Below the pieces are notes generated by a model. That model saw only the letters and a program-made list of their open reading frames with translations. It made no database searches and was not told the DNA's origin. A program made the position numbers and the translations under genes. This document shows, piece after piece, positions 1-8,858 of a DNA stretch of 8,870 bases; positions within the stretch are counted from its first letter, which is position 1, and the number at the start of each line of letters is the position of its first letter. The stretch comes from a virus (Duplodnaviria > Heunggongvirae > Uroviricota > Caudoviricetes). The stretch is taken from the IMG/VR virus record IMGVR_UViG_2671180906_000004; one strand, written 5' to 3'.

Positions 1-41
1 AGATGGCTGCTTAAAAAAAGAACAAATGGTAGTGTCCGCTA

Positions 42-365
42 TTGCCAGTACACCTCAAACTACTCATTGCCAGATGGGAACTGACCGCAGAACAGGCTGT
101 CGCACAGCAGTTAAAAAATCAGGTGTCAAAAGGAAATCTTATCGATACCGGATTTTGTATTTTTGCCCTTAGTAAGCTGGCGATGGCTTTATCCAGTACG
201 CTTGACTCCATTCCTTTGTCCATGCAACGACAGTTCCCGGATTTAACGCCGCGTCATATTGATCATCTGAAAATCCTTATTGCTAAGGGAGCGAATCAGT
301 GCGCGCGTGCGGGGGATAAATTACCGGATTTACTCGATGAATATATCAGAACAACAACTGAGTAA
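42..365 (+). CDS. nu1: Terminase small subunit (Nu1-like), C-terminal portion only; 5' end not resolvable in this window
   Basis: The ~95 C-terminal residues (GFCIFALSKLA...SIPLSMQRQFPDL..RHID.LK...LLDEYI) resemble the C-terminal half of lambda gpNu1 as I recall it. The frame is open only from nt 33 because of in-frame stops at 12-14 (TAA) and 30-32 (TAG). The ORF track start at 42 is a TTG. It sits immediately upstream of, and overlaps, the large terminase gene as in lambda. Confidence 0.7.
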   Translation: MPVHLKLLIARWELTAEQAVAQQLKNQVSKGNLIDTGFCIFALSKLAMALSSTLDSIPLSMQRQFPDLTPRHIDHLKILIAKGANQCARAGDKLPDLLDEYIRTTTE

Positions 366-2247
366 TATGATGGTGGCAGTCACTATCGCACTGCAGCCAC
401 TGGTCAGGGTATTGCCGGTGACGGCTGTAGAATGGGCCGATCAAAATTATTACCTGCCTAAAGAATCGTCATACGGTGAGGGGGAATGGAAAACGCTGCA
501 GTTTCAGGTCGCCATCATGAACTGCATGGGCAATGACGAGATTCGTACAGTTAACCTGATTAAATCTGCCCGTGTTGGTTATACAAAAATGGTGCTTGGT
601 GTGATCGGGTATTTTATTGAGCACAAATCCCGCAACACTCTTCTTTTTCAGCCGACGGACTCAGCTGCTGAAGATTTTATGAAGTCTCACGTGGAAGCAA
701 CAATTCGTGATGTTCCTTGCCTGAAAAAACTTTCTCCCTGGCTGGGCCGGAAACACCGGGATAATACGCTCACACTGAAGCGTTTTTCCTCTGGTGTGGG
801 GTTCTGGTGTTTGGGTGGTGCTGCTGCCAAAAACTACCGTGAAAAATCTGTCGATGTGGTCTGCTATGACGAACTCTCCTCGTTTGAACCGGATGTGGAA
901 AAAGAAGGTTCGCCAACACTGCTTGGCGATAAACGTATTGAAGGTTCGGTATGGCCAAAATCCATACGCGGTTCAACGCCAAAAATTAAAGGCTCCTGTC
1001 AGATTGAAAAAGCTGCGAATGAATCTGCGCATTTCATGCGGTTTTATGTCCCTTGCCCTCATTGCGGGGAGGAGCAGTATCTGAAGTTTGGCGATGATGC
1101 GACGTCGTTTGGCCTGAAATGGGAGAAGGGTAAACCGGAAACGGTGTATTACCTGTGTGAACATAATGGCTGCGTGATCCGTCAGTCTGAACTTGATCAG
1201 ACCGGGGGGCGCTGGATTTGTGACAATACCGGGATGTGGACGTGTGACGGTCTGACGTTTTTCAGTGCTTCGGGTAATGAAATTCCGCCGCCGCGCTCCA
1301 TCACTTTCCATATATGGACGGCGTACAGTCCGTTCACCACCAGGGTACAGATAGTCTGTGACTGGCTGGATGCACTGAAAGATCCCAACGGCGTGAAAAC
1401 TTTTGTGAACACCACGCTGGGCGAGACCTGGGAAGAGGCCGTGGGCGAAAAACTCGATCACCAGGTACTGATGGATAAGGTTGTGCCTTACACGGCAACG
1501 GTGCCTGTCCGGGTGGTTTATCTGACGGCGGGCATTGACTCGCAGCGAAACCGTTTTGAGATGTATGTCTGGGGGTGGGCTCCGGGAGAGGAAGCCTTTC
1601 TGGTGGATAAAATCATCATCATGGGACGTCCTGATGAGGAAGAGACGCTGTTACGTGTGGATGCGGCGATCAATAAAAAATACCGCCATGCAGACGGTAC
1701 CGAAATGACCATTTCCCGTGTCTGCTGGGATATCGGGGGGATCGATGGCGAAATCGTGTATCAGAGGTCAAAAAAACACGGTATTTTCCGGGTACTGCCG
1801 GTAAAAGGTGCCTCTGTCTATGGCAAGCCGGTGATCACCATGCCGAAAACCCGCAATCAGCGGGGTGTGTATCTGTGTGAGGTGGGGACGGATACCGCAA
1901 AAGAAATTCTCTATGCCCGAATGAAGGCCGATCCCACCCCTGTGAATGAGGCCACATCGTATGCCATCCGCTTTCCTGATAATCCGGAGATTTTTTCGCA
2001 GACAGAGGCACAACAACTGGTGGCGGAGGAACTGGTGGAAAAGTGGGAAAAAGGAAAGATGCGTCTGTTGTGGGATAACAAAAAGCGGCGTAACGAAGCG
2101 CTGGACTGCCTGGTGTATGCCTATGCGGCATTACGTGTGTCCGTGCAACGCTGGCAACTTGATCTGGCTGTGCAGTTGCATCCCGCAAGGATGCAACTGC
2201 ACAACCGACCCTTGAAGAACTGGCAGCGAAGCTGTCCGGAGGAGTGA
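337..2247 (+). CDS. A: Terminase large subunit (gpA-like)
   Basis: Strong similarity along the whole length to lambda gpA as recalled (MNIS..., TAVEWAD.NYYLPKES, KSARVGY.KM, FMRF.V.CPHCGEEQYLKFGD, FVNTTLGETWE, YLTAGIDSQ, RWQLDL). The ATG at 337 gives the MNIS N-terminus with the same 28-residue spacing to TAVEWAD as lambda, so it is preferred over the longer ORF from 280. Overlaps the nu1 3' end by 29 nt. Confidence 0.93.
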   Translation: MNISEQQLSNMMVAVTIALQPLVRVLPVTAVEWADQNYYLPKESSYGEGEWKTLQFQVAIMNCMGNDEIRTVNLIKSARVGYTKMVLGVIGYFIEHKSRNTLLFQPTDSAAEDFMKSHVEATIRDVPCLKKLSPWLGRKHRDNTLTLKRFSSGVGFWCLGGAAAKNYREKSVDVVCYDELSSFEPDVEKEGSPTLLGDKRIEGSVWPKSIRGSTPKIKGSCQIEKAANESAHFMRFYVPCPHCGEEQYLKFGDDATSFGLKWEKGKPETVYYLCEHNGCVIRQSELDQTGGRWICDNTGMWTCDGLTFFSASGNEIPPPRSITFHIWTAYSPFTTRVQIVCDWLDALKDPNGVKTFVNTTLGETWEEAVGEKLDHQVLMDKVVPYTATVPVRVVYLTAGIDSQRNRFEMYVWGWAPGEEAFLVDKIIIMGRPDEEETLLRVDAAINKKYRHADGTEMTISRVCWDIGGIDGEIVYQRSKKHGIFRVLPVKGASVYGKPVITMPKTRNQRGVYLCEVGTDTAKEILYARMKADPTPVNEATSYAIRFPDNPEIFSQTEAQQLVAEELVEKWEKGKMRLLWDNKKRRNEALDCLVYAYAALRVSVQRWQLDLAVQLHPARMQLHNRPLKNWQRSCPEE

Positions 2248-2451
2248 ATGGTTACAGTCGCTGAACTGCAGGCGCTGCGTCAGGCGCGCCTTGATTTATT
2301 AACCGGTAAACGGGTTGTGTCGGTACAGAAAGACGGTCGCAGGATCGAATATACGGCAGCGTCCCTGAATGAGCTTAACCGTGCGATCAACGATGCGGAG
2401 TCGGTTCTGGGTACGACCCGACGCCGCCGACCGCTGGGAGTGAGGTTATGA
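2248..2451 (+). CDS. W: Head-tail joining / head completion protein (gpW-like)
   Basis: 67-aa ORF with the motif LTGKRVVSVQKDGRRIEYTAASL matching lambda gpW ([22 protein letters not shown] as recalled). GGAGGAG at 2238-2244; the ATG directly follows the TGA stop of gene A (TGAATG). Confidence 0.9.
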   Translation: MVTVAELQALRQARLDLLTGKRVVSVQKDGRRIEYTAASLNELNRAINDAESVLGTTRRRRPLGVRL

Positions 2452-4041
2452 AACGAACGCCTGTCCTGATTGATGTGAACGGCGTTCCGCTTCGTGAGAG
2501 TCTCAGCTACAACGGAGGCGGCGCAGGATTTGGCGGGCAAATGGCAGAGTGGTTACCACCGGCGCAGAGTGCCGATGCGGCCCTGTTGCCTGCATTGCGT
2601 CTGGGGAATGCCCGGGCAGATGATCTGGTGCGCAATAACGGTATCGCGGCTAATGCGGTGGCCCTGCATAAGGATCATATCGTCGGGCACATGTTTCTTA
2701 TCAGCTACCGTCTGAACTGGCGTTGGCTGGGGATGCGGGAGACCACGGCAAAAAGTTTTGTCGGGGAGGTGGAAGCAGCCTGGTCGGAATACGCAGAAGG
2801 AATGTTTGGCGAGATCGACGTGGAAGGGAAACGCACGTTTACGGAATTTATCCGTGAAGGGGTGGGCGTGCATGCCTTTAACGGCGAAATCTTTGTGCAG
2901 CCGGTCTGGGATACGGAAACCACGCAGTTATTCCGTACGCGTTTTAAAGCCGTGAGTCCGAAACGGGTGGACACGCCAGGACACGGTATGGGGAACCACT
3001 TTCTGCGGGCCGGGGTTGAGGTCGATCGGTATGGGCGGGCGATTGCGTACCATATCTGTGAGGATGATTTTCCGTTCTCTGGTGCCGGACGCTGGGAGCG
3101 GATCCCGCGTGAGCTTCCCACCGGGCGTCCGGCCATGCTGCATATTTTTGAGCCGGTGGAGGACGGGCAGACCCGTGGGGCTAATCAGTTTTACAGCGTA
3201 ATGGAGCGGATGAAGATGCTGGACTCCCTGCAGGCCACGCAGCTTCAGTCGGCCATTGTGAAGGCGATGTATGCAGCCACAATCGAAAGTGAACTTGATA
3301 CCGAAAAGGCATTTGAATATATCGCGGGGGCACCGCAAGGTCAGCAGGATAATCCGCTTATTAATATTCTGGAGAAGTTCACCCGCTGGTATGACACGAA
3401 TAACGTGACGCTGGGCGGTGTTAAAATTCCGCACCTTTTTTCCTGGCGATGCGCTGAACCTGCAGACAGCGCAGGATTCAGACAATGGATTTTCGGCGCT
3501 TGAACAGGCGCTGCTGCGGTATATTGCAGCCGGTCTTGGCGTTTCCTACGAACAGTTGTCCCGTGATTACTCGAAGGTCAGTTACTCAAGTGCCCGCGCC
3601 TCCGCCAATGAGTCGTGGCGCTATTTTATGGGGCGGCGAAAATTTATTGCGGCCCGGCTGGCCACGCAGATGTTTTCCTGCTGGCTGGAAGAGGCGCTTC
3701 TTCGGGGGATTATTCGTCCGCCACGGGCGCGTTTTGATTTTTACCAGGCGCGTTCAGCCTGGTCACGGGCAGAGTGGATTAGCTCCGGAAGAATGGCCAT
3801 TGACGGGCTCAAGGAGGTCCAGGAATCGGTGATGCGCATTGAGGCCGGACTGAGCACGTATGAGAAAGAACTGGCACTGATGGGCGAAGATTATCAGGAC
3901 ATTTTCCGCCAGCAGGTCAGGGAATCCGCAGAGCGCGAAAAAGCCGGACTCTCACGTCCGGTGTGGATAGCCCAGGCGTATCAGCAGCAGATAGCGGAGA
4001 GTCGCAGGCCGGAAGAGGAGACAACATCACGTGAGACGTAA
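2448..4041 (+). CDS. B: Portal protein (gpB-like), reading frame interrupted at a T6 run (3436-3441), so either a pseudogene or a sequencing indel
   Basis: Two ORFs (2448-3503 and 3418-4041) are together colinear with lambda gpB (NGGGAGFGGQ, ARADDLVRNNG, FEPVEDGQTRGAN.FYSVME.MKMLD, LQTAQD.DNG, LLRYIAAGLGVSYEQLSR, RMAIDGLKEVQE). Removing one T from caccTTTTTTcctggcgat restores ...IPHLF-PGDALNLQTAQD... in a single frame. The ATG overlaps the W stop (ATGA). Confidence 0.85.
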
Positions 4042-5592
4042 TCTTTCACATATTATCGCTGCGGCATTCAATGAGCCGCTGCTTCTGGAGCCCGCCTATG
4101 CGCGGGTTTTCTTTTGCGCGCTCGGGCGTGAGATGGGCGCAGCAAGCCTTTCGGTACCGCAACAGCAGGTACAGCTTGACGCTCCCGGGATGCTGGCTGA
4201 AACGGACGAGTACATGGCCGGAGGCAAACGACCTGCCCGTGTTTACCGGGTGGTGAACGGTATTGCTGTACTGCCGGTGACCGGCACGCTGGTACACCGG
4301 CTGGGTGGCATGCGGCCATTTTCCGGAATGACTGGCTATGACGGCATTGTCGCCTGTCTTCAGCAGGCAATGGCGGACACTCAGGTACGGGGCGTACTGC
4401 TGGACATTGACAGTTCTGGCGGGCAGGCCACCGGCGCGTTTGACTGCGCTGACATGATTTACCGTCTCCGGCAGCTGAAGCCTGTCTGGGCACTGTGCAA
4501 TGACACGGCCTGTTCAGCCGCCATGTTACTGGCATCGGCCTGCTCCCGACGGCTGGTTACCCAGACATCCCGTATCGGCTCCATTGGGGTGATGATGGGC
4601 CATGTCAGCTATGCCGGTCATCTGGCACAGGCCGGTGTGGATATCACGCTGATTTACGCCGGATCGCACAAGGTGGATGGCAATCAGTTTGAATCCCTGC
4701 CAGCAAAGGTTCGCCAGGACATGCAGCAGCGCATTGATGCGGCGCGCCGGATGTTTGCTGAAAAAGTGGCGATGTATACCGGTTTATCTGTGGATGCGGT
4801 TATGGGAACAGAGGCCGCCGTTTTTGAAGGTCAGTCCGGTATTGAGGCCGAACTGGCGGATGAATTAATCAATGCGTCGGACGCCATCAGCGTGATGGCT
4901 GCGACGCTGAACACACACGATACAGGAGGCACTATGCCGCAATTAACTGCAACGGAGGCTGCCGCGCAGGAGAACCAGCGAGTGATGGGGATCCTGACGT
5001 GTCAGGAAGCGAAAGGACGTGAACAACTGGCCACGATGCTGGCAGGGCAACAGGGTATGAGCGTTGAGCAGGCCCGGGCGATTCTGGCCGTGGCGGCACC
5101 GCAACAATCTGGTGTATCTGCGCAGAGTGAAGCCGATCGCATTATGGCATGTGAAGAGGCGAAAGGACGTGAACAACTGGCGGCAACGCTGGCGGCGATG
5201 CCGGAGATGACGGTGGAAAAAGCCCGTCCGATTCTGGCTGCTTCACCGCAGGCGAATGCCGGACCCTCACTTCGTGATCAGATTATGGCCCTGGATGAGG
5301 CAAAAGGGGCAGAGGCGCAGGCTGAAAAACTGGCGGCCTGTCCGGGGATGACCGTGGAGAATGCCCGGGCTGTACTGGCGGGGGGCCCCGGNNNNNNNNN
5401 NNNNNNNNNNNNNNNNNNNNNNNNNNNNNNNNNNNNNNNNNNNNNNNNNNNNNNNNNNNNNNNNNNNNNNNNNNNNNNNNNNNNNNNNAACATTTCATGG
5501 CGAACCATTCACCGGCAGCGGTACAGGGTGGCGTGCCACAGACGTCAGCAGACGGTGATGCGGACGTGAAAATGCTCATGGCCATGCCATGA
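4031..5592 (+). CDS. C: Prohead protease / scaffold (gpC-like, S49/ClpP-like serine peptidase family), interrupted by an assembly gap
   Basis: GTG start at 4031 gives MRRNLSHIIAAAFNEPLLLEPAYARVFFCAL, matching the lambda gpC N-terminus (AFNEPLMLEPAYARVFFCAL as recalled). Conserved core VNGIAVLPV.GTLV, GMTGY.GI, FDCADMI, KPVWAL.ND..CSA..LLASA.SRRLVTQT, GSIGVMM, ITLIY.GSHKVDGN. After the N run the matching C-terminus (...SADGDADVKMLMAMP*) is in a different frame and stops at 5590-5592. Confidence 0.85.
4934..5592 (+). CDS. nu3: Nu3-like scaffolding protein, nested in-frame within the 3' part of gene C (partial because of the gap)
   Basis: In-frame ATG at 4934 preceded by AGGAGG (4924-4929) with a 4-nt spacer, positioned like the internal Nu3 start of lambda. 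The downstream sequence carries the Nu3-like motif IMGIL.C.EA.GRE....LA..PGMTVE.AR.ILA.APQ. Confidence 0.5.
4979..5391 (+). repeat. In-frame tandem coding repeats (at least 3 units of ~47-53 codons) of the Nu3-like scaffold motif, running into the assembly gap
   Basis: Unit starts at about 4979 (RVMGILTCQEAKGREQLATMLA...GMSVEQARAILAVAAPQ), 5138 (RIMACEEAKGREQLAATLAAMPEMTVEKARPILAASPQ) and 5279 (QIMALDEAKGAEAQAEKLAACPGMTVENARAVLAGGP...). A near-identical 26-nt core, ga(a/g)gcgaaaggacgtgaacaactggc, occurs at 5005-5030 and 5157-5182. Confidence 0.8.
5392..5488. other. Assembly gap (run of 97 N)
   Basis: Uninterrupted N run visible in the sequence; the reading frame of the gpC/Nu3 gene differs on the two sides. 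Confidence 0.99.
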
Positions 5593-7511: not shown

Positions 7512-7889
7512 GTGGACGGTTTCGATAATCTGTTTGATGCTGCGCTTGCCGGTGTCAATGAAGTCATTCTCCGTGATATGGGGATCAGCGCCGTCATTAC
7601 GTCCGGAGAACTTGAGGGGACACACCTGACAGGGGTTTTTGATGATCCCGAAAGTATTTCTTTTGTTGCCGGGGGGATCCGGCTTGAGGATTCCTCACCG
7701 TGCCTGTTTGTGAAAACGGCAGATATATCGCAGTTACGCCGTCAGGATACGTTAACTATCGGGGATGATTCTTTCTTTGTGGATCGTATTACTCCGGATG
7801 ACGGGGGATGCTGTTATATCCGGTTAAGGCGGGGCAGTCCTGCCCCACAGAATAATGCCAGAATGAGGCGATATGATGAAGGGACTTGA
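7512..7889 (+). CDS. FII: Head-tail joining protein FII-like
   Basis: GTG start at 7512 preceded by AGGAG (7502-7506). MDGFDNLFDAA...ITSGE..G....GVFDDPE.IS......R.E.SSP.LFV.T....QLRR.DTLTIG...F.VDR..PDDGG matches lambda gpFII (MADFDNLFDAA...GVFDDPENIS...LRRGDTLTIG...PDDGG as recalled). Confidence 0.85.
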   Translation: MDGFDNLFDAALAGVNEVILRDMGISAVITSGELEGTHLTGVFDDPESISFVAGGIRLEDSSPCLFVKTADISQLRRQDTLTIGDDSFFVDRITPDDGGCCYIRLRRGSPAPQNNARMRRYDEGT

Positions 7890-8460: not shown

Positions 8461-8858
8461 ACCGACACACACAAATCCGTCAGAGCGTGCTGGCACGCCT
8501 TCGGGAACAGTGTGGAGACAGCGCCACGTTTTTTGACGGGCTTCCGGCATTTATTGATGCGCAGGAACTGCCCGCCGTGGCGGTGTGGCTGAGTGATGCG
8601 CAGTACACCGGAAAAATGACGGATGAGGACGACTGGCAGGCTGTTCTGCATATTGCCGTTTTCGTCCGTGCACAGGCGCCGGATTCTGAGCTGGATACGT
8701 GGATGGAGAACACCATATTTCCGGCCATGAAGGATATTCCGGTGCTTTCCGGACTCATCGACACCATGATCCCACTCGGTTTTAACTATCAACGTGATAA
8801 TGAGATGGCCACCTGGGCGATGGCGGAAATCACGTACCAGATCACGTACACGAATTAA
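8457..8858 (+). CDS. U: Tail terminator protein U-like
   Basis: ATFFDG.PA..D....PAVAV.L..A.YTG......D.WQA.LHI.VF..AQ.PDSELD.WME..I.P...DIP.LS.LI......G..Y.RD......TY.ITY matches lambda gpU as recalled. ATGA start/stop overlap with Z. Confidence 0.9.
   Translation: MNRHTQIRQSVLARLREQCGDSATFFDGLPAFIDAQELPAVAVWLSDAQYTGKMTDEDDWQAVLHIAVFVRAQAPDSELDTWMENTIFPAMKDIPVLSGLIDTMIPLGFNYQRDNEMATWAMAEITYQITYTN

What the first reader, a model, noticed from the sequence alone, without database searches (positions are those of the whole stretch)
3425..3510. Portal gene broken by a +1 nt frameshift inside a T6 homopolymer
The gpB-like protein is colinear with lambda portal over ~530 residues only if one T is removed from the T6 run at 3436-3441. 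As written, the first frame terminates at 3503 after 21 missense codons, and the remainder is in the +1 frame. Lambda portal is a single ORF with no known programmed frameshift, so this is either a homopolymer sequencing error or an inactivating mutation in a decaying prophage. The same record contains an N gap, which makes a draft-quality error plausible.
Basis: partly seen in the sequence, partly recalled or inferred. Interest (0 to 1): 0.45.

Follow-up and report, generated by a model that had tools for sequence, protein, structure and literature searches.

The report
Real portal frameshift in dead Shigella prophage
The extra T that breaks the phage portal gene is a real, inherited mutation found in Shigella flexneri genomes from many independent assemblies, in a lambda-like prophage that is disabled in several other ways too, so it is an ordinary and already annotated pseudogene rather than a sequencing error.

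Summary
A T6 run at 3436-3441 splits a lambda/phage-21-type portal gene into a 351-aa ORF (2448-3503) and a +1-frame remainder ending at 4041. Removing one T gives a 530-aa portal.

The sequencing-error reading is refuted.
- The exact 351-aa truncated product occurs on at least 1000 contigs (2587 index blocks). These include the S. flexneri reference genomes 2457T, 301, 8401 and 2002017.
- The window is 100% identical to 2457T over bases 1-5381.
- All 14 Shigella-lineage loci I fetched as T6 carriers have T6. E. coli orthologues have T5 and an intact gene. Phage 21 has T4, and lambda has no T run at the site.
- The few "T5" S. flexneri assemblies are mostly noisy ones that undercall other homopolymers of 6 or more bases nearby. 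There, errors repair the gene rather than break it.

The prophage is otherwise dead.
- IS600 splits the small terminase gene Nu1; the window starts inside IS600.
- The cos/Nu1 5' region is missing upstream in the 2457T genotype.
- A quasi-palindrome mutation at 2166-2206 frameshifts the C-terminus of the large terminase.

There are no recoding signals. This is ordinary, already annotated prophage decay.

The parts
1..56 (+). Right end of an IS600 copy that interrupts the small terminase gene (Nu1)
   Evidence: The E. coli orthologous prophage aligns only from window base 57. The matching stretch of 2457T (L014 6340-7612) is 99.4% identical to elements annotated 'IS3-like element IS600 family transposase'.
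57..365 (+). 3' remnant of Nu1 (small terminase), lacking about the first 67-69 codons
   Evidence: Pfam PF07471 matches profile positions 85-163 of 164 only.
337..2247 (+). Large terminase (gpA-like), 636 aa, with a frameshifted C-terminus
   Evidence: PF05876 and PF20454 match. The last ~24 residues differ from the 642-aa orthologue because of a net -1 change at 2173-2177.
2166..2206 (.). Near-perfect 18-nt inverted repeat made by a quasi-palindrome (template-switch type) mutation; this is the cause of the TerL frameshift
   Evidence: One search finds 18-nt arms, 94% complementary, with a 5-nt loop in the window and nothing in L003. The window reads GCAGTTGCATCC where relatives read GCTGGCGGCATCC.
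2248..2451 (+). gpW-like head-tail joining gene, intact
   Evidence: 67-aa ORF. PF02831 is recorded in the identical Shigella loci.
2448..3503 (+). Portal pseudogene, 5' piece: 331 authentic codons, 20 missense codons, then a stop
   Evidence: PF05136 profile positions 2-288.
3436..3441 (+). T6 run holding the 1-nt insertion; the ancestral state is T5
3442..4041 (+). Portal pseudogene, 3' piece in the +1 frame (the mechanical ORF is 3418-4041). It carries G445S at 3781.
   Evidence: PF05136 profile positions 288-354. G445S versus the G of phage 21, lambda and group-B Shigella is shown.
4031..5569 (+). S49 protease/scaffold gene (gpC/Nu3-like), interrupted in this record by the assembly gap
   Evidence: PF01343 is recorded in the identical loci.
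5382..5488 (.). Assembly gap: 10 bases that differ from the finished sequence (5382-5391), then 97 N. Together they replace 51 bases of that sequence.

Best explanation
One extra T was added to a T5 run, most simply by replication slippage, in codons 330-331 (Leu-Phe) of the portal gene of a phage-21/lambda-type prophage. This happened in an ancestor of Shigella flexneri, and the mutation has been inherited vertically ever since. It truncates the portal after 331 authentic residues of 530 and removes the last fifth of the conserved portal domain and the C-terminus. No dodecameric portal can be made, so no heads can be made. The prophage is a defective remnant in any case: IS600 splits its small terminase gene, and in the lineage this window belongs to, the large terminase C-terminus is also frameshifted. 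The reality and inheritance of T6, the co-occurring lesions and the ancestral T5 state are shown by the data. The slippage mechanism and the loss of portal function are inferred.
For: (1) Independent assemblies. The exact 351-aa product is listed in 2587 index blocks and on at least 1000 contigs from NCBI, ENA and Logan. Its accessions are AAN42336.1 (which the source names S. flexneri 2a str. 301), AAP16213.1, ABF04804.1 and ADA73063.1. The 3' piece is annotated separately as AAN42337.2/AAP16214.1. From my own knowledge, not a tool result, the other three 351-aa accessions belong to strains 2457T, 8401 and 2002017, and the 2002-2003 reference genomes were finished by Sanger sequencing.
(2) Identity to a reference. 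Window 1-5381 is 100% identical to AE014073.1 (2457T) with no indel. Two IMG/VR contigs without an N gap, and SFBU1023 and ECMA0423, also carry T6.
(3) Phylogenetic nesting. T6 occurs both in loci with the derived TerL allele (group A: window, L005, L006/L012, L007, L009, L011, L014) and in loci with the ancestral TerL allele and about 10 further SNPs (group B: L008, L010, L013, L015, L016). T6 therefore predates that split.
(4) Ancestral state. Four E. coli loci have T5. In three of them the portal is an intact 1593-nt gene; in the fourth (CFSAN029787) it is broken by a different 1-nt deletion. After repair, the group-B Shigella protein is identical to the intact RMDEC364 portal. All 30 listed E. 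coli matches and every full-length phage match (query 1-401) span 400 bases for the 401-base query. Phage 21 reads CTT TTC CCT and lambda reads CTG ATG CCG.
(5) Other lesions. IS600 splits Nu1. The cos/Nu1 5' region is absent from the 10 kb upstream in seven of the ten 21-kb loci, including all five of group A. TerL has a C-terminal frameshift. G445S lies downstream of the frameshift at a residue that is G in lambda and phage 21.
(6) The apparent T5 exceptions in S. flexneri are artefacts. Seven of the nine Logan assemblies also delete a base from other homopolymers of 6 or more bases in the region. CP037996.1 carries unique insertions.
Against: I could not see raw reads for the particular draft record the window comes from. 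Its T6 is inferred to be real from identity with other assemblies. That record does contain ten divergent bases next to its N gap. Nineteen contigs of S. flexneri show an in-frame T5 gene with the group-A marker S445. Two of them (L032, L034) show no other indel in the stretch covered, so a rare true reversion cannot be excluded. Loss of portal function is inferred from sequence, not tested.
Confidence: 0.94

Rival explanations
1. The extra T is a homopolymer sequencing or assembly error in a draft record, and the gene is really intact (T5).
For: The record is a draft, with a 97-N gap and 10 divergent bases just before it. A few S. flexneri assemblies show T5.
Against: T6 is present in at least 1000 contigs and 2587 index blocks from different sources, including finished reference genomes. 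It occurs in two diverged sublineages. Most of the T5 assemblies are the error-prone ones: seven of the nine Logan assemblies lose a base from G6, A6, A7 or T6 runs elsewhere in the same 8 kb. The window has no other indel relative to 2457T.
Confidence: 0.02
2. The T6 run is a recoding site. A +1 ribosomal slip of tRNA-Phe on CUU UUU U, or loss of one U by transcriptional slippage, yields full-length portal at a useful level, so the gene is functional despite the frameshift.
For: A +1 slip on UUU-U would re-pair perfectly and give exactly the ancestral H-L-F-P-G-D sequence (read directly). The downstream frame is still open to the normal stop. From my own knowledge, Shigella does use transcriptional slippage at a run of nine Ts in mxiE.
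Against: The site is not conserved. All relatives with a working gene have T5, T4 or no run, and a single ORF. The next 0-frame codon is an ordinary UCC, not a stop or a rare codon. There is no Shine-Dalgarno-like stimulator upstream. There is no unusual RNA structure (z = -1.02). From my own knowledge, six Ts is below the 8-9 or more usually needed for appreciable transcriptional slippage. Terminase and cos are broken, so nothing would select for portal function.
Confidence: 0.02
3. The 351-aa N-terminal portal fragment has been kept because it does something for the host, for example poisoning portal assembly of superinfecting lambdoid phages.
For: The fragment is identical across very many S. 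flexneri genomes and keeps its start, its translational coupling to gpW and most of the portal domain.
Against: Identity is expected anyway in a young clonal lineage. No family of similarly truncated portals turned up: the other short cluster members listed are named 'partial' by their sources, and most sit on short contigs. There is no evidence of expression. I ran no PADLOC search.
Confidence: 0.02

Closest known systems
Phage 21 gene 4 product (record M81255.1 labels it 'head-tail preconnector gp5') and lambda gpB portal, Pfam PF05136
   Same: The repaired protein is 96.4% identical to the phage 21 portal and 61.2% to lambda gpB, colinear over 530 residues. The gene order is the same: Nu1, A, W, B, C/Nu3, D, E, FI, FII, Z, U. 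The lambda portal structure 8K38 matches at E = 4e-213.
   Different: Here the gene is broken at codon 331 by a 1-nt insertion, whereas the phage genes are single ORFs.
Cryptic or defective lambdoid prophages of Shigella flexneri
   Same: IS-riddled phage remnants with deletions are the rule in S. flexneri. [quoted passage not shown] This locus shows IS600 insertion, deletion and frameshifts.
   Different: Nothing of substance. This is one such remnant. The split portal is already deposited as two CDS in the strain 301 record (AAN42336.1 and AAN42337.2), with AAP16213.1 and AAP16214.1 as a second pair.
Programmed +1 frameshifting (prfB type) and transcriptional slippage (mxiE type in Shigella)
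   Same: A U-rich slippery stretch (CUU UUU U) on which +1 re-pairing would restore the ancestral protein.
   Different: There is no stop or hungry codon in the A site, no upstream SD-like element, only six Ts, and no conservation in relatives. The properties of prfB and mxiE are from my own knowledge.

Membership tests
Lambda-family phage portal protein (PF05136) | Significant match to the family profile over its full length | tested here: met
   The repaired protein matches at E = 2.8e-97 over profile positions 2-354 of 354. As written, the match is split: 2-288 in the 351-aa piece and 288-354 in the 207-aa piece.
Functional portal gene | A single uninterrupted ORF of about 530 codons, as in lambda B and phage 21 gene 4 | tested here: not met
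   The gene is split at 3436-3441. Lambda and phage 21 have single ORFs of 1602 and 1593 nt.
Sequencing or assembly artefact | The variant is confined to one record and absent from independent, high-quality assemblies of the same lineage | tested here: not met
   T6 is in at least 1000 contigs and 2587 index blocks, including 2457T and 301.
Defective (cryptic) prophage | Additional inactivating lesions in essential phage genes | tested here: met
   IS600 splits Nu1. TerL has a C-terminal frameshift. The cos/Nu1 5' segment is missing within 10 kb upstream in seven of the ten 21-kb loci, including all of group A.
Programmed +1 ribosomal frameshift (prfB/antizyme type) | A slippery P-site codon followed by a stop or rare A-site codon, with an upstream stimulator | tested here: not met
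   The A-site codon is UCC. The upstream sequence GUUAAAAUUCCGCAC has no SD-like element. The local fold is unremarkable, z = -1.02.
Programmed +1 ribosomal frameshift (prfB/antizyme type) | The frameshift site is conserved among orthologues | tested here: not met
   Orthologues in E. coli prophages, phage 21 and lambda are in-frame at this site with T5, T4 or no run.
Transcriptional slippage site | A homopolymeric A or T run of about 8-9 or more (threshold from my own knowledge) | tested here: not met
   The run is six Ts.

The most novel reading that the evidence does not exclude
The T6 tract is not merely a scar. Either it acts as a slippage-prone switch, through rare reversion to T5 or low-level +1 recoding that gives some full-length portal, or the conserved 351-aa N-terminal fragment has been co-opted by S. 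flexneri to interfere with head assembly of incoming lambdoid phages.
Probability: 0.03. Interest if true: 0.45.

Novelty: already known. Interest (0 to 1): 0.07.

Why it matters
It matters little biologically. It is one more frameshifted structural gene in an IS-ridden cryptic prophage of Shigella flexneri, and public reference genomes have carried it as two separate CDS since about 2002-2003.

It has some practical value.
- It is a clean example of why a homopolymer frameshift next to an assembly gap should not be written off as an error without checking other assemblies.
- The converse also holds: noisy long-read assemblies can falsely "repair" a true pseudogene by undercalling the homopolymer.
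- The T6 allele and the nested TerL quasi-palindrome mutation could serve as simple lineage markers within S. flexneri.

Tried and rejected
(1) Sequencing error. I rejected this after finding T6 in many independent assemblies.

(2) I looked for in-frame (T5) versions within S. flexneri as a sign of phase variation. I found 19 contigs. Seven of the nine Logan assemblies also drop bases from other runs of 6 or more bases. The one NCBI assembly, CP037996.1, has peculiar insertions, including one that also restores the TerL frame, which looks like noisy data or frame-aware polishing. I therefore rejected this as evidence for reversion. L032 and L034 show only the T deletion, so a rare reversion is not formally excluded.

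(3) Recoding. There are no stimulatory signals and no unusual RNA fold.

(4) I tried to read the 2457T and 301 genome papers (PMC153260, PMC137130). Neither is held. Two literature searches gave only general statements on cryptic prophages in S. flexneri.

(5) My first attempt to locate the N run with the DNA search failed because the pattern was all N. I did it in Python instead.

(6) dN/dS after the frameshift was not attempted. There are only one or two substitutions in the gene among Shigella loci.

Full report
**The observation**

The window carries a lambda/phage-21-type head-gene block on the + strand. Its parts in order are:
- a Nu1 remnant
- large terminase (337-2247)
- gpW (2248-2451)
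- portal
- S49 protease/scaffold (4031-5569)
- decoration protein
- major capsid protein
- FI, FII, Z and U

These come from the ORF list and from Pfam labels on identical loci.

The run TTTTTT is at 3436-3441. The portal reading frame that starts at 2448 passes through it as CAC CTT TTT TCC TGG CGA. The rest of the portal (…FPGDALNLQTAQDSDNGF…) is in the +1 frame and ends at 4041.

Removing one T gives a 530-aa protein. It is 99.6% identical to an intact E. coli prophage portal, 96.4% to phage 21 gene 4 product and 61.2% to lambda gpB. The Pfam portal profile PF05136 is cut at position 288 of 354 between the two pieces. The 97-N gap at 5392-5488 is real.

**Is the extra T real?**

The closest complete E. 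coli genomes have T5: both copies in FDAARGOS_943, RMDEC364 and CFSAN029787. In the first three loci the portal is an intact 1593-nt gene. Over the portal, the window differs from FDAARGOS_943 only by the extra T and two substitutions. That alone would be compatible with a sequencing error.

Other assemblies settle it.
- An exact 52-nt pattern containing T6 occurs in two complete genomes, S. flexneri SFBU1023 and "E. coli" ECMA0423.
- The exact 351-aa truncated protein is on record in 2587 index blocks and on at least 1000 contigs from NCBI, ENA and Logan. Its accessions are AAN42336.1 (which the source names S. flexneri 2a str. 301), AAP16213.1, ABF04804.1 and ADA73063.1. From my own knowledge the other three belong to strains 2457T, 8401 and 2002017.
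- The 3' piece is deposited as a separate CDS (AAN42337.2, AAP16214.1).
- The window is 100% identical, with no indel, to 2457T (AE014073.1) over 1-5381.
- Two IMG/VR contigs without any N gap are also identical and carry T6.
- All 14 Shigella-lineage loci fetched as T6 carriers (L005-L018) have T6, and all four E. coli loci have T5.
- Phage 21 reads CTT TTC CCT and lambda reads CTG ATG CCG at this site.
- Every full-length phage match (query 1-401) and each of the 30 listed E. coli matches spans 400 bases for the 401-base query.

**The mutation is old within the lineage**

The Shigella loci fall into two groups.
- Group A (window, L005, L006/L012, L007, L009, L011, 2457T = L014) has a derived 636-aa large terminase and a G445S change in the portal 3' piece.
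- Group B (L008, L010, L013, L015, L016) keeps the ancestral 642-aa terminase and G445, and differs at about 10 further sites in 5.4 kb.

Both groups have T6, so T6 arose before they split. After repair, the group-B portal is identical to the intact portal of E. coli RMDEC364. At protein level, the single T is the only difference between that pseudogene and a working gene.

**Apparent exceptions**

An in-frame portal with the group-A marker S445 exists on 19 S. flexneri contigs.

I fetched nine of the Logan assemblies. Compared with 2457T, seven of them also lose a base from other homopolymers of 6 or more bases in the same region. The affected runs are G6 at 1204, A6 at 1675, G6 at 1735, A7 at 1770, T6 at 1991, A6 at 113 and 724, and G6 at 7615. 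This is systematic homopolymer undercalling.

The one NCBI assembly, CP037996.1, has unique insertions (+G at 596, +CGG at 2418). It also has a +T at 2173 that happens to restore the TerL frame as well. That looks like noisy data or frame-aware polishing.

So in this lineage, sequencing error tends to "repair" the pseudogene rather than create it. Two short Logan contigs (L032, L034) show only the T deletion, so I cannot formally exclude a rare true reversion.

**The surrounding prophage is defective**

- Window 1-56 is the end of an IS600 copy. The E. coli orthologue aligns only from base 57.
- The Nu1 remnant lacks about its first 67-69 codons.
- In three group-B loci, the Nu1 5' part and the cos region survive about 3.8 kb upstream, behind further IS elements. 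In the other seven loci, including all five of group A, they are absent from the 10 kb upstream.
- In group A, TerL carries a complex change at 2173-2177. GCTGGCGGCATCC becomes GCAGTTGCATCC, a net loss of one base. This turns an imperfect inverted repeat into an 18-nt near-perfect one (arms 2166-2183 and 2189-2206). It replaces the last ~30 residues with 24 unrelated ones.

This last change has the signature of a quasi-palindrome template-switch mutation, which is a replication event and not a typical sequencing error. From my own knowledge, the C-terminus of lambda gpA is the part that binds the prohead portal.

**Mechanism**

The most likely history is replication slippage adding one T to a T5 run. 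The T5 run is itself peculiar to this E. coli/Shigella prophage subgroup, since phage 21 has T4. The change then became fixed in an S. flexneri ancestor because the prophage was already, or soon became, non-functional.

The consequence is loss of residues 332-530 of the portal, and therefore loss of the portal ring. This is inferred from homology to lambda gpB, whose structure is solved (8K38, E = 4e-213).

**Recoding considered**

A +1 slip of tRNA-Phe on UUU-U would regenerate the ancestral protein exactly. However:
- the following codon is an ordinary UCC
- there is no upstream SD-like element
- the local RNA fold is unremarkable (z = -1.02)
- six Ts is, from my own knowledge, too short for efficient transcriptional slippage
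- no relative conserves the arrangement

With cos, Nu1 and TerL broken, nothing would select for portal function.

**Comparison with what is known, and verdict**

This is a member of the lambda-family portal genes that has become a pseudogene in a cryptic Shigella prophage. That kind of decay is described as typical for S. flexneri (PMC6424224). The split is already in public annotation. It is ordinary and already known, so interest is low.

Of the two readings offered, the pseudogene reading is right and the sequencing-error reading is wrong.

Noticed in passing
window 2166-2206 (change at 2173-2177): The large terminase gene carries a quasi-palindrome 'correction'. GCTGGCGGCATCC in relatives is GCAGTTGCATCC here, a net loss of one base. 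This creates an 18-nt near-perfect hairpin and frameshifts the last ~30 codons, giving 636 aa instead of 642. It is present in 2457T-type S. flexneri (group A) and absent from group-B S. flexneri and from E. coli.
   Followed up: partly
window 1-56 and 57-365: The window starts inside the right end of IS600, which cuts off about the first 67-69 codons of the small terminase gene Nu1. The Nu1 5' part and the cos region lie ~3.8 kb upstream behind more IS elements in three group-B loci. They are missing within 10 kb upstream in the other seven, including all of group A.
   Followed up: partly
window 5382-5391, next to the N run 5392-5488: The ten bases before the N run (the end of GGGGGGCCCCGG) do not match any relative, which read GCAGCCTCAGG... 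These ten bases plus the 97 Ns replace only 51 bases of the finished sequence. So the record does have local draft-quality errors, just not at the T run.
   Followed up: yes
window 3781: A versus G gives G445S in the out-of-frame 3' part of the portal. The residue is G in lambda, phage 21, E. coli orthologues and group-B Shigella. This fits relaxed constraint after the frameshift, but it is a single observation.
   Followed up: partly
L005, L006/L012 and L027, at window-equivalent 934 and 1062: SFBU1023, ECMA0423 and one Logan assembly share a paired +A (934) and -T (1062) in TerL. The pair scrambles ~43 codons and splits the gene into 201 + 397 aa. Neither change is at a long homopolymer. It could be a further real lesion in a sublineage or a shared systematic error.
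   Followed up: no
window 8573-8810: Twenty-two substitutions in the tail gene U region separate the window (and L007, L009, L011) from 2457T and the group-B loci, which are otherwise nearly identical. This looks like a recombination or gene-conversion patch from a related prophage.
   Followed up: no
L025 (CP037996.1) and L026-L034 (Logan assemblies): These S. flexneri assemblies show an 'intact' T5 portal. Seven of the nine Logan contigs also undercall other homopolymers of 6 or more bases nearby. CP037996.1 has a +T at 2173 that also restores the TerL frame. True pseudogenes can thus be falsely repaired in noisy or frame-polished assemblies.
   Followed up: yes
L001 (E. coli CFSAN029787), window-equivalent 3704: The orthologous portal in this complete E. 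coli genome is also annotated 'frameshifted', but for a different reason. It has G4 instead of the G5 run at window 3704-3708, and T5 at the T run.
   Followed up: partly
L002 and L003 (E. coli FDAARGOS_943): This genome carries two copies of the same head-gene block, encoding identical terminase, portal and protease proteins. Each copy has an ISEc60 insertion at the end of the head-tail joining gene. In the first copy that gene is also annotated as frameshifted.
   Followed up: no
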